Made by a program: the position numbers. Shown here one piece after another: positions 1 to 3,000 of a stretch of DNA of 64,000 bases. The DNA is taken from IMG/VR virus record IMGVR_UViG_2877982868_000014. The stretch is one strand, 5' to 3'. The stretch comes from a virus. Taxonomy: Duplodnaviria; Heunggongvirae; Uroviricota; Caudoviricetes. Every line of letters begins with the position of its first letter. The stretch's first letter is position 1.

Positions 1-3000
1 TCACTCACTCTCTTTTAAACCAGTTTTAACTGTTTGTGGTTTTGGGTAAGGCTGGACTTTGAATAGCTTTGTGTTGAGGCGTTTTCTGGCCCTCTTGTTC
101 AGAAACCGGATGTAACGAAACTGACGGAATTTATGAACACTGGCTCTGTCGATATTAGCCCTCAGATGTTCACCTCGCTGTCCGCCTCGTTTAATGGCAT
201 TCCTGCAAATCTCGTGATACCACTCGCCATCAAGTTCATAGAATGTTGATTCGTGGCTGCCTACATAATCAAAATTGCTTGCCTGATACACGACACCAAG
301 ACAGCCACAACGCTCATCTGCAAACGACTGAACCCACTGTACCTGCGGATAAAGCTGCCTGATTAGCTTGAGCGCGTAACTGATTGCCCTTGATTCGGAG
401 TTTCTCGGCATACAGTCATGCAGCCATAACCGGTTAAGCTCCATATATTCACGGTTCCGCGTGCCCGTTACGACGCGTGCACCACTGTTTGGATTAAGGG
501 CATAGCCCCATTGCATTACGCCAACCAGCTCCCGTTCTGAAAATATGCCCAGATGAAGGTAGGAGTTATTTACGAAACGGTGGCTGTAATGTTTATTGAC
601 GATGACCAGTCTGGCCAGCCAGCAACTTATTGTCTCAACCCGCAACTCACGGGAGCCATAACCAACGATATTGTCGTTATAGCGAATAAGTTCAGGCGTG
701 CTGATGATACGGGATGTGACTTGCTTTCTGTTCCCCACGACAGGATTTCCTTGTGTATGTGGGGTGCTCTGTGGCGCTCGGAGATGTGATTTGATTGAGG
801 GTTTTACAGCGCGGACATTTTACTTCCAGATAACTGAAACTGGCCCGTGCCAGTAGCTTATTGCAGTGTCGGCACCGTATGTTTCGATACATGGCCGCAT
901 AACCTCCTGCTTTGTTGTTGATGCCTTTCTCATGCAATCGATCGACAAAAACGATCGATTCGATTTGTTTAATTGATACAACAAATAGATTGAAAAGTCA
1001 TCAACAATGATTCAGGGCGGTGATTATTTACTTAAAGAAAACGAAGACTTAGGTGGTGAAAACGATCATAAAATGATCATTTTATTGACTTTTTATACAG
1101 TGAAGGTAGGATCGCGCGTATATGTAGTATGTTTCAAATCAACAGGATACTACATAAAGGGAGGTCCAGATAGTTACAGCTATCTGGACCTGGAACAAAT
1201 TCGCATCAATGCTTTACTTCGAGCTCGTGTCGTATCCTATGATATTCCCCGGTCTCCTGTAAAGCAGAGATGCATAAAAAGGAGATCTTTATCATGGATA
1301 AAGAGCCTGTTTGCCCTGCCTGTAAGACTCCCTTACAGCTCATCTATCGCCGTTCTCGATCTCAAAATGGCAAGACATACAAACCCCAAAATGCGTCCTG
1401 TTTCAGGATGCTGATATGTCCTGCCTGTTCTCCCCGGAGGGAAAGTACACAAAACGTGCATTAACAAATTCACCCGGCAGGGAAACCTGCCGGTCGGTAT
1501 TGTTACATCATAGTACCGTCAGTTCCGGGCTGAACCGGCTCTGGTTGCTCTACGGCTTGAGGCTCATTCTCCGTGCTGTTTTCAGCCGGAGAATGGCCAA
1601 CCATTCGGGCCAGCACTTCATCAACATATGCGTCGATTTGTGCCTCAAAATCCTTGCGAACCTGCGCCTTCAGCACGCGGTTCACTTCTTCAGAATAAAG
1701 TGCCTGTTTGACAAGCTCTTCAGTAACCGTGCCTTTAATCTCTGGCATGAATATTCTCCTTTTGCAGGTATATTGCCCCGTTATCAGAGCGGGGTCGGGT
1801 CGTTTGGGGATGACGGTGCCTGTGCTGTTTTACTGAGTTTTTCAGCTGCCGCATCATCAATTTTACGGCGAATATAATTTCTGATGACCTTATAACCGCC
1901 GCTCACCAGATATAACGCACTGACCACTGCGCAGAAATAAAGCAGCATTGTATGAACGAATGTCATATAACCTTACCTTTGATATTGACTACATAATTCG
2001 TTATCGGGTAAAAACATCGAAGCGACTGATAACCACTCCTTCGGGAGTATTTTTATTTTCCTTTATGGGTTAGGTAGCTCCCGCCAGCCATATCATGACC
2101 GGCGGGATTTTTTTATTCTGTTACCGCTTTTTTCACTTCCACCACAATGCTGTCAATCAGCACCGGGTAAGTTGCATTTTTTGTGATATCCGTTACGCGG
2201 AGTTTGTCCACCGGGAAAGTTCCTACTGGTGACTGCGTCAGGGTAAACGCGGCACCATCCTGACCATCAATAACCGGAATAACCTGAAGGCTGTTATTTC
2301 CTGCAAAACGGAAGGCCAGCGTATGCCATTCATTATCAAATGCACCAAAGGTTCCCAGTTTCTGGTTATTTGTTGCCACTTTTGCATTGTGGTACATCAC
2401 ATTCAGGTCTTTTGCGTCTGTCTGGATGTAGAACGATGCCAGCAGATTATTCCCTGCATCCCCTGTCAGGGTGACACCCTGCGGCAGAGAGGAAACCGGC
2501 CAGTAAAGCGCCATGACATACTGGTTTGCCACCAGGTCGCCCGGTACTTTAAAACGACAACTGATTAAACCACCATTTTTCAGCAGTTCAGCACCAGTAC
2601 CGGCATCATGATCCAGATACCAGGATGATTTACCTGTTTCCTTGGTCAGTTTCATTGCCTTACCACCTGTGCCTCCTGCATCACTGATAATTTCAGCTTT
2701 ACCGCCAGCCGGCTCCCAGCCCTGGGCTTTCAGATTTCCTTCTGACTCACTGACACGGTAAGACAGCAGTGTTGTGGTTACTGCTTCAGTTTCTGAAGGT
2801 GACGGCACTGGTGCTTCAGTTTCAGAAGATGGAACATCGGCTTTTACTGTGGTTCGCCCCGCATGAGTCAGAACTGCCGTGGCCAGACGGTCGGAAATAA
2901 TCCCACGACGTGCCCATGAACTGAAATGGCTGGCCCGGTCCGTAGATGTCCAGGTGGCGGCACTGTTACGCCACGTTGAGCCGTAATAACCAATGGATTC

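What the first reader, a model, noticed from the sequence alone, without database searches (positions are those of the whole stretch)
1270..1500. Second Com-like zinc-ribbon gene, convergent to the esterase operon
A 56 aa ORF with a strong AAGGAG ribosome-binding site encodes CPAC-x2-LQLIY ... ICPAC. This is the same CxxC..LL..CPxC design as the Mu Com translational activator encoded 400 bp away, but on the opposite strand, and it ends in a GC hairpin (1474-1493). It has no mom-like partner downstream. It may regulate the cargo operon in trans, or be a remnant of a second com-mom unit.
Basis: seen in the sequence. Interest (0 to 1): 0.5.

Follow-up and report, generated by a model that had tools for sequence, protein, structure and literature searches.

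The report
Orphan zinc-ribbon gene beside com-mom
The 56-codon reading frame is a real, conserved small zinc-ribbon gene of Sp18-type Mu-like prophages that public annotation mislabels as a broken pseudogene, but it is not a relative of Com and its function is still unknown.

Summary
No shuffled window gave a 40-90 aa ORF with two CPxC.

The window start is the right end of an Sp18-type Mu-like prophage of STEC E. coli. RefSeq calls 1007-1464 a "frameshifted" pseudogene, because in Sakai one extra G fuses this frame to a non-conserved upstream ORF (ECs_4996).

Evidence that the small ORF is the real gene:
- Substitutions are biased to synonymous only in its frame.
- A 47%-identical Salmonella-type homolog keeps all four CPxC cysteines, and dN/dS between the two is about 0.17.
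- That homolog sits in the same place, divergent from com, whatever cargo lies downstream.

It is not a Com family member: no PF10122 match, hhalign probability 7.9%, a different knuckle spacing, and no modification gene downstream. It is not tied to the esterase operon.

It has a positionally conserved sigma-70-like promoter and a roughly 175-nt structured leader. That leader also drives an unrelated 68-aa ORF in other prophages, so this is an accessory-gene slot.

Function is inferred only: a small basic protein that probably binds nucleic acid. Inactivating or start-shifting alleles are common.

The parts
1294..1464 (+). Small zinc-ribbon protein gene (56 aa plus stop). CPAC at residues 7-10 and 42-45, with a basic loop RRSRSQNGKTYKPQN between them.
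   Evidence: Coding signature: 7 of 12 substitutions synonymous in this frame only (P=0.015). dN/dS about 0.17 against the Salmonella-type homolog. Homolog P0005 found at E=5.4e-7. AF2 pLDDT 78.5 with four beta strands.
1279..1284 (+). Shine-Dalgarno AAGGAG, 9 nt upstream of the ATG.
   Evidence: Conserved in all type 1 and type 2 loci.
1085..1112 (+). Candidate sigma-70 promoter TTGACT-16-TAGGAT for the small gene. Its -10 element overlaps a GATC.
   Evidence: 9 of 12 matches. L027 has TTGACT-16-TAAGAT at the same position, and L040 has an unrelated TTGACG-16-TATAAT at the same distance from ATATGTAGTA. No expression data.
1119..1308 (+). Structured leader RNA of about 175 nt plus the translation-initiation hairpin. 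P1 1121-1156. P2 1162-1191. P3 1203-1273. P4 1286-1304 holds the AUG in its triloop, and AGG of the SD pairs with 1306-1308.
   Evidence: MFE -67.3 kcal/mol, z -5.65. The Salmonella-type leader folds into the same four parts, z -6.47. RNAalifold finds 5 pairs with compensatory changes. G.U wobbles occur on the + strand.
1162..1191 (.). Hypervariable hairpin P2. Eight alleles have different stems that all still pair. The unit is tandemly duplicated in some prophages. On the - strand it is followed by CCCUUUAU and looks like a terminator.
1234..1263 (-). Candidate - strand promoter TTTACA-18-TAGGAT. Together with P2 it could produce an antisense RNA of about 75 nt. Speculative.
   Evidence: Both hexamers are conserved and the spacer varies across three lineages (sequences).
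1474..1493 (.). GC-rich hairpin between the convergent stop codons of the small gene (1464) and DUF826 (1503). Probably a bidirectional terminator.
   Evidence: Retained in all type 1 haplotypes, with two weakening variants.
1007..1414 (+). 'ORF A' (135 aa). This is the non-conserved open frame that RefSeq joins to the small gene as a 'frameshifted' pseudogene. It is not a gene.
   Evidence: It is broken by a 1-bp deletion or an in-frame stop in 8 of 14 haplotypes, and no frame shows a coding signature. It is not conserved in L027.
692..892 (-). The true com gene (Pfam Zn_ribbon_Com, 2e-12), divergent from the small gene. mom follows at 1-738.

Best explanation
Window 1294-1464 is a genuine, independently expressed gene for an orphan small zinc-ribbon protein. 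It sits in the right-end accessory region of Sp18-type Mu-like prophages and is always transcribed divergently from the com-mom (or com-methylase) control region.

Shown:
- The frame is under purifying selection.
- It has a deeply diverged syntenic homolog that keeps both CPxC knuckles and a GKTY(K/R)P loop.
- The 'frameshifted pseudogene' label in RefSeq comes from a Sakai-specific one-base insertion that fuses it to a non-conserved upstream frame.

Inferred:
- It is transcribed from a sigma-70-type promoter at 1085-1112, with no need for phage activators.
- The transcript carries a leader of about 175 nt with four conserved helices. The last helix holds the AUG in its loop and pairs part of the SD, so translation is probably throttled.
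- It ends at the 1474-1493 hairpin.
- The protein (two knuckles, beta strands, basic loop, disordered tail) most likely binds nucleic acid.

The same leader carries unrelated small ORFs in sister prophages, and disabling alleles are common. I therefore read it as a dispensable host-interaction or anti-defence-type accessory ('moron') gene next to the anti-restriction module, rather than a core regulator. I give this functional reading a probability of about 0.4-0.45. Confidence that the gene itself is real is 0.75.
For: - Locus identity and annotation.
- The Sakai fusion is caused by one extra G (ATGGATGAAAG).
- Among 15 E. coli haplotypes the zinc-ribbon frame is open in 12, while ORF A is broken repeatedly.
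- 7 of 12 substitutions are synonymous in this frame (expected 0.25, P=0.015). The other five frames are at chance. ORF A shows no signal in any frame.
- Exhaustive HMMER search of 1.84 billion proteins found one distant homolog, P0005 (47% identity, E=5.4e-7). It is a Salmonella enterica hypothetical protein.
- The homolog is encoded divergent from Zn_ribbon_Com and about 390 bp away in Mu-like prophages.
- Type 1 versus type 2: pS 0.72, pN 0.32. Within type 2 there are 7 synonymous and 6 non-synonymous changes.
- The promoter position is conserved, including an unrelated near-consensus promoter at the same spot in L040.
- The leader fold is conserved.
- An 18-contig scan for the leader motif shows three alternative ORFs behind it.
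- The AF2 model shows a zinc-ribbon-like fold.
Against: - There are no transcript, ribosome-profiling or peptide data.
- Only two deep lineages exist, so phylogenetic breadth is small and the within-lineage test is modest (P=0.015, sites counted once, tree ignored).
- Disabled alleles occur. An A-run frameshift is found in two independent E. coli records (L022, L020) and at a comparable spot in type 2 (L042). L017 carries C7Y.
- The commonest E. coli allele is an exact match in 138 records, against 69 for the window's allele. It moves the start to an ATG 4 nt downstream and bulges helix P4.
- Leader conservation could partly reflect - strand functions, such as a terminator shielding com-mom or an antisense RNA.
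Confidence: 0.75

Rival explanations
1. It is a Com-like RNA-binding translational or transcriptional regulator. It would act on its own leader, on the mom control region, or on another phage mRNA. It would work like Com without being related to it.
For: The general design resembles Com as described in PMC6483171: an N-terminal four-cysteine module, basic residues and a predicted disordered C-terminal tail. It is constantly adjacent to com and its modification gene. Its own start region sits in a hairpin, the type of structure Com opens on mom mRNA.
Against: A regulator is not expected to be swapped for an unrelated 68-aa ORF behind the same leader, nor to be frameshifted or start-shifted in many lysogens. 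It has diverged far more than Com between the same phages: 47% versus 64-74% identity. No Com-type target motif lies in the leader. Phage Mu itself has only 95 bp between gin and com and lacks such a gene.
Confidence: 0.2
2. RefSeq is right: 1007-1464 is a decaying frameshifted pseudogene of a 154-aa protein (ECs_4996), and the 56-aa frame is only its C-terminal remnant.
For: The PGAP annotation appears in every record inspected except Sakai and one O145 strain. PHROG 26524 matches the ORF A part.
Against: The fused frame exists only in the G-insertion allele combined with one hairpin allele. ORF A is interrupted in different ways in 8 of 14 haplotypes and shows no coding signature. It overlaps the GATC-rich com-mom control region, the promoter and the structured leader. 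In the Salmonella-type lineage the upstream frame is not conserved, while the 53-aa ORF is annotated on its own. The boundary of the alternative cassette falls just upstream of the ribosome-binding site, not at 1007.
Confidence: 0.04
3. The functional unit is mainly RNA. It would be a cis-antisense pair resembling a type I toxin-antitoxin or a phage antisense control, made of the structured + strand leader and a - strand RNA of about 75 nt (promoter 1263-1234, terminator P2). Alternatively, P2 is simply a - strand terminator that shields the lethal com-mom operon from read-through, and the ORF is secondary.
For: The - strand TTTACA-18-TAGGAT has conserved hexamers and a variable spacer in three lineages. 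P2 has eight covarying alleles and a U-rich tail on the - strand only. The leader is more conserved than the ORF: 76% versus 60% nucleotide identity. The start codon is sequestered.
Against: The protein is hydrophilic and basic, not a membrane toxin. G.U wobbles in P1, P3, P4 and two P2 alleles fit the + strand only. The protein is clearly under selection. No Rfam family matches. The promoter match is only 9 of 12.
Confidence: 0.12

Closest known systems
Phage Mu Com (Pfam PF10122, Zn_ribbon_Com)
   Same: Both are small (56 versus 62-66 aa) four-cysteine zinc-module proteins with basic residues and a disordered tail. Both are encoded at the right end of a Mu-like phage. One knuckle reads CPxCKT in both.
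   Different: There is no detectable homology. Knuckle spacing is 31 residues rather than 15. It lies on the opposite strand and does not overlap or precede a modification gene. The Com RNA motif is absent from nearby candidate targets.
Generic bacterial and phage zinc ribbons (Pfam Zn_ribbon_TFIIB PF13453, Trm112p-like PF03966)
   Same: Two CPxC knuckles flank beta strands. Weak sub-threshold profile matches cover the first knuckle: 14.3-21.2 bits against a cutoff of 22, and 18.2 bits against a cutoff of 22.
   Different: All matches fall below the curated cutoffs. The conserved GKTY(K/R)P loop and the C-terminal CPxCSP are specific to this family. No solved or predicted viral structure matches significantly.
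momP2, the divergent overlapping promoter in the Mu mom control region (cited in PMC3378877)
   Same: Both give leftward transcription out of the Dam/OxyR/C-controlled region upstream of com-mom. Here a sigma-70-like promoter lies among GATC sites at 1064, 1075 and 1110.
   Different: In Mu the divergent promoter has no known gene behind it, since gin ends 95 bp from com. Here it would drive a long leader and a protein gene. Equivalence of the two promoters was not tested.
Moron and anti-defence gene slots of temperate phages, for example the anti-CRISPR slot of Pseudomonas Mu-like phages (from general knowledge, not tested)
   Same: A conserved expression platform is followed by interchangeable, fast-evolving, dispensable small ORFs, next to a known anti-restriction function (mom).
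   Different: No anti-defence activity or homology is shown. PADLOC and PHROGs give nothing.

Membership tests
Com (PF10122 Zn_ribbon_Com) | Significant match to the family profile | tested here: not met
   The neighbouring true Com scores 2e-12 (46.8 bits). The ORF and 5 relatives give no PF10122 hit at E<=1. hhalign of the two family alignments gives probability 7.9% over 11 columns.
Com (PF10122 Zn_ribbon_Com) | Conserved RCxxCNKLL...E(V/I)(K/R)CPRCK pattern, with about 15 residues between the knuckles | tested here: not met
   The Com alignment compared with the ORF family alignment. The ORF has CPxC-x31-CPxC. BLASTP aligns only one knuckle, and not collinearly.
Com (PF10122 Zn_ribbon_Com) | Encoded directly upstream of, and overlapping, the modification gene whose translation it activates | tested here: not met
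   Downstream of the ORF lie a hairpin and the convergent DUF826 gene. In L027 an intrinsic terminator follows the ORF.
Com (PF10122 Zn_ribbon_Com) | Binds an RNA hairpin loop carrying CC(N)2-3GAG next to a translation-inhibition structure (PMC6483171) | not testable with these tools
   Only motif occurrence could be checked. There is none in the ORF's leader, one 36 nt before the mom GTG, and 2 in 2.7 kb of esterase-operon mRNA.
Zinc-ribbon fold | Two CxxC knuckles joined by beta strands | tested here: met
   Prediction only. AF2 gave pLDDT 69 from a single sequence and 78.5 with a 3-sequence alignment, with strands at 15-19, 22-24, 27-29 and 37-41. The four knuckle cysteines are invariant across the two lineages, while C36 is not.
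Zinc-ribbon fold | Binds one zinc ion through four cysteines | not testable with these tools
   This needs metal analysis of purified protein.
Pfam Zn_ribbon_TFIIB (PF13453) | Score at or above the gathering threshold (22 bits) | tested here: not met
   14.3 bits for the window protein, and 21.2 and 19.0 bits for two type 2 proteins. Only the first knuckle matches.
Ogr/Delta late activators and Lar restriction-alleviation proteins (other small phage zinc proteins considered) | Match to the family profile | tested here: not met
   Neither family appears among Pfam, NCBIfam or PHROG hits at E<=1. A 'restriction alleviation protein' appears only at Foldseek E=3.4.
Type I toxin-antitoxin | Small hydrophobic or otherwise toxic peptide, plus a cis-antisense RNA that controls a structured mRNA | tested here: inconclusive
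   The protein is hydrophilic and basic, which argues against membership. The structured leader with a sequestered AUG and the candidate - strand promoter and terminator are compatible with it. No expression or toxicity data.

The most novel reading that the evidence does not exclude
The conserved promoter, the four-helix leader (possibly with a cis-antisense RNA) and the interchangeable small ORF behind them form a previously undescribed RNA-controlled accessory module. It would share the Dam/OxyR-type control region of com-mom and deliver fast-evolving effectors, with the zinc-ribbon protein as one of them, that act with Mom against host defences or on host nucleic acids.
Probability: 0.15. 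Interest if true: 0.6.

Novelty: new member of a known kind. Interest (0 to 1): 0.35.

Why it matters
About 200 of 5,426 complete E. coli genomes carry this locus, mostly STEC including O157:H7, and RefSeq labels it a frameshifted pseudogene. The evidence here says the real gene is the small zinc-ribbon ORF and that the long frame is an artefact of one strain's allele. This is a concrete case of how small phage genes get lost in annotation. The locus also offers a compact, testable system: a constitutive-looking promoter that faces the tightly silenced mom promoter, a conserved structured leader, and a slot in which unrelated small ORFs are exchanged. If the products turn out to be anti-defence or regulatory factors, that would extend the known anti-restriction toolkit of Mu-like phages. 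If not, it is one more uncharacterised accessory (moron-type) gene in a prophage.

Tried and rejected
- Com homology: rejected.
- Known protein families: Pfam, NCBIfam, PHROGs and PADLOC gave nothing above threshold.
- Wider homologs:
  - The word-indexed protein search found only near-identical E. coli sequences and, when repeated with a profile, added only P0005, already found.
  - tblastn of phage and plasmid collections found only near-identical copies.
  - Two scans of GTDB species representatives found nothing.
  - The metagenome scan gave only type 1 copies.
- Rfam search of 880-1520: chance-level hits only.
- DNA similarity of the com-upstream region to phage Mu: none detectable. Mu has no room for such a gene.
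- Com-target motif in the leader: absent.
- SD sequestration by GGTCTCCT (1250-1257): I considered this, but the folds pair that segment inside P3 instead.
- Literature: no paper mentions ECs4993-ECs4998. The Sp18 papers found give no data on this gene.
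Full report
**1. What is at the coordinates**

The sequence shows:
- AAGGAG at 1279-1284.
- ATG at 1294 and TAA at 1462-1464, giving a 56-aa product: MDKEPVCPACKTPLQLIYRRSRSQNGKTYKPQNASCFRMLICPACSPRRESTQNVH.
- A GC-rich hairpin CCGGCAGG-GAAA-CCTGCCGG at 1474-1493 (-21 kcal/mol, z -4.4 on either strand).

Of 193 ORFs of 40-90 aa in the window, this is the only one with two CPxC motifs. Thirty shuffled windows gave none.

**2. Context**

Bases 950-2110 are 100% identical to several STEC chromosomes and 97% identical to about 200 others, and the segment is labelled as a Mu-like phage inserted in Stx phages. It is the right end of an Sp18-type Mu-like prophage.

On the - strand the order is:
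- a gin-like recombinase;
- a 679-aa SASA/DUF6645 esterase (2113-4152);
- DUF1378 (1784-1966);
- DUF826 (1503-1748);
- then, after the ORF region, com (692-892, Pfam Zn_ribbon_Com 2e-12) and mom (1-738).

The ORF is on the + strand. It is divergent from com (401 nt apart) and convergent with DUF826.

**3. The annotation conflict**

RefSeq annotates 1007-1464 as one 'frameshifted' hypothetical pseudogene in every genome inspected. The exceptions are Sakai (ECs_4996, 154 aa) and one O145 strain. The alignment shows why. Sakai-type copies read ATGGATGAAAG where the window reads ATGGATAAAG. The extra G joins the zinc-ribbon frame to an upstream open frame, 'ORF A'.

Across 15 E. coli haplotypes:
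- ORF A is interrupted by a 1-bp deletion at 1038 in four haplotypes, and by an in-frame stop in one hairpin allele in four more.
- No frame of 1007-1293 shows an excess of synonymous change.
- The zinc-ribbon frame is open in 12 of the 15 haplotypes.
- In that frame 7 of 12 distinct substitutions are synonymous, against an expected fraction of 0.25 (P=0.015). The other five frames are at chance.

**4. Distant homolog and synteny**

Word-indexed and translated searches found only near-identical E. coli copies.

The exhaustive HMMER search of 1.84 billion representatives found one distant relative, P0005. It is 53 aa, 47% identical, E=5.4e-7: MDKEARLCPSCHEQMTPIFRGSFTRKGKTYRPKKAASFPIWLCPKCSPAEESH. 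It is annotated as a hypothetical protein of Salmonella enterica.

P0005 keeps the start MDKE, both CPxC knuckles, GKTY(K/R)P and CPxCSP. It does not keep C36.

It is encoded in Mu-like prophages at the same place, divergent from a Zn_ribbon_Com gene and about 390 bp from it. There the modification enzyme is either Mom or a C5 DNA methylase. More type 2 copies occur in IMG/VR.

Between the two types pS is 0.72 (saturated) and pN is 0.32, so dN/dS is about 0.17. Within type 2 there are 7 synonymous and 6 non-synonymous changes. This is a protein-coding gene family, not a remnant.

What lies downstream differs between loci:
- the esterase operon in the window and in L041;
- a DUF1353 gene in L040;
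- three unknown + strand genes in L027.

A role tied to the esterase cargo is therefore not supported.

**5. Is it Com-like?**

No, by every sequence test:
- No PF10122 match for any of six members.
- BLASTP against the neighbouring Com aligns only 13 residues around one knuckle, and not collinearly.
- hhalign probability is 7.9%.
- Knuckle spacing is 31 residues against 15.

AF2 predicts a zinc-ribbon-like fold with a disordered tail. pLDDT was 69, and 78.5 with three sequences.

In general design it resembles Com as described in PMC6483171. 'Works like Com' therefore cannot be excluded, but membership fails.

**6. Expression platform**

A sigma-70-like promoter, TTGACT-16-TAGGAT, lies at 1085-1112. 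L027 has TTGACT-16-TAAGAT at the same place. L040 has an unrelated TTGACG-16-TATAAT at the same distance from the conserved ATATGTAGTA.

From about 1119 the + strand RNA folds into four elements (MFE -67.3, z -5.65):
- P1, 1121-1156.
- P2, 1162-1191.
- P3, 1203-1273.
- P4, 1286-1304, with the AUG in a triloop and AGG of the SD paired with 1306-1308.

The Salmonella-type leader adopts the same architecture (z -6.47). RNAalifold reports five pairs with compensatory changes, and there are several G.U pairs that would be A.C mismatches on the other strand. No Rfam family matches.

P2 is hypervariable. Its eight alleles have different stems that all pair (-12 to -22 kcal/mol), and the unit is duplicated in tandem in STEC1587, L040 and L041. 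On the - strand only, P2 is followed by CCCUUUAU and is called terminator-like.

A - strand TTTACA-18-TAGGAT at 1263-1234 has conserved hexamers and a variable spacer. An antisense RNA of about 75 nt is therefore possible but unproven.

GATC sites lie at 940, 953, 1064, 1075, 1110 and 1284. This recalls the Dam/OxyR control of Mu mom, and Mu has a divergent promoter momP2 in the same region (PMC3378877). The equivalence is an inference.

**7. A variable slot**

A scan of IMG/VR for the leader motif GGTCTCCTGTAAAGCAG found 18 contigs:
- 9 carry the type 1 zinc-ribbon ORF behind the leader. Two of these have the G insertion and one has C7Y.
- 4 carry the type 2 ORF, one of them frameshifted.
- 5 carry an unrelated 68-aa ORF, MDKLTTDPKLQAARIAADITIAAMTSTRGNF..., with no family match.

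The exchange boundary lies just upstream of the ribosome-binding site.

Disabled alleles are not rare:
- An A-run frameshift occurs in two independent E. coli records.
- A comparable frameshift occurs in type 2.
- L017 carries C7Y.
- The G-insertion allele is an exact match in 138 complete-genome records, against 69 for the window's allele. It moves the start 4 nt downstream and bulges P4.

The protein has also diverged much more than Com between the same phage lineages: 47% against 64-74% identity.

**8. Interpretation**

Shown: this is a real, conserved, stand-alone small zinc-ribbon gene. It is not a Com family member, not a com-mom remnant, and not linked to the esterase operon. The RefSeq pseudogene call is an artefact of the Sakai allele.

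Inferred: it is transcribed without phage activators from a promoter facing Pmom. Its translation is throttled by the leader. Its product is a nucleic-acid-binding protein that is dispensable for the phage.

The most likely role is a host-interaction or anti-defence-type accessory gene in a swap slot next to the anti-restriction module (about 0.4-0.45). The rivals are a Com-like regulator (about 0.2), a mainly RNA-based antisense or terminator unit (about 0.12) and a true pseudogene (about 0.04).

The Com SELEX motif is absent from the leader but present 36 nt before the mom start.

**9. Verdict**

Novelty is modest: an uncharacterised member of the large class of small phage zinc-ribbon proteins, with an unusually conserved structured leader. 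Interest 0.35.

Noticed in passing
window 1007-1464 (about 200 E. coli complete genomes): RefSeq/PGAP labels this stretch a 'frameshifted hypothetical protein'. The reference model is Sakai ECs_4996, a 154-aa fusion created by one extra G. PHROG 26524 is built on the spurious 135-aa upstream frame.
   Followed up: yes
window 1162-1191, and the equivalent positions in L006, L007, L009, L027, L040, L041, L042: A hairpin with at least eight alleles. The stems differ at several positions but always pair, the flanks are conserved, and the whole unit (about 79 bp) is tandemly duplicated in three prophages. It is terminator-like on the - strand only.
   Followed up: partly
window 1234-1263 (- strand): TTTACA-18-TAGGAT has both hexamers conserved and a variable spacer in E. 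coli, Salmonella-type and L040 loci. Together with the hairpin above, it could make an RNA of about 75 nt antisense to the leader.
   Followed up: partly
window 940, 953, 1064, 1075, 1110, 1284: A cluster of GATC sites lies in the com / zinc-ribbon intergenic region. One overlaps the -10 of the + strand promoter and one overlaps the Shine-Dalgarno sequence. This is reminiscent of the Dam/OxyR control of Mu mom.
   Followed up: no
window 767-774 (- strand): CCACAGAG matches the published Com-binding motif CC(N)2-3GAG. It lies 36 nt upstream of the mom GTG start (738), where a Com target is expected.
   Followed up: partly
L008 2800-3010, L009 2880-3017, L053, L057, L059, L061, L064: In sister prophages the same leader is followed by an unrelated 68-aa ORF, MDKLTTDPKLQAARIAADITIAAMTSTRGNF... 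(truncated to 45 aa in STEC1587). It is convergent with an extra 66-aa - strand gene. Neither has a family match.
   Followed up: partly
window 1383-1392; L022/L020; L042 (=L050): One-base slips in A-runs inside the basic loop frameshift the gene independently in type 1 (two records) and in type 2. This may be a mutational hot spot.
   Followed up: partly
window 1503-4152 (- strand): The esterase (SASA + DUF6645), DUF1378 and DUF826 cassette sits between gin and com-mom of a Mu-like prophage. From general knowledge, this gene trio is typical of the region downstream of stx in lambdoid Stx phages. In L041 a related 754-aa esterase is present without DUF1378 or DUF826.
   Followed up: no
L027 and L041 (com neighbours): In some Salmonella-type prophages com is followed by a C5 DNA methylase (Pfam DNA_methylase) instead of Mom. 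The com-controlled modification gene is therefore itself exchangeable.
   Followed up: no
window 26702-26929 (- strand): A third small ORF in the window has two CxxC motifs (MDDSDRAQAVMERG...CADCGG...CVNCQ). It looks like a TraR/DksA-type zinc finger.
   Followed up: no
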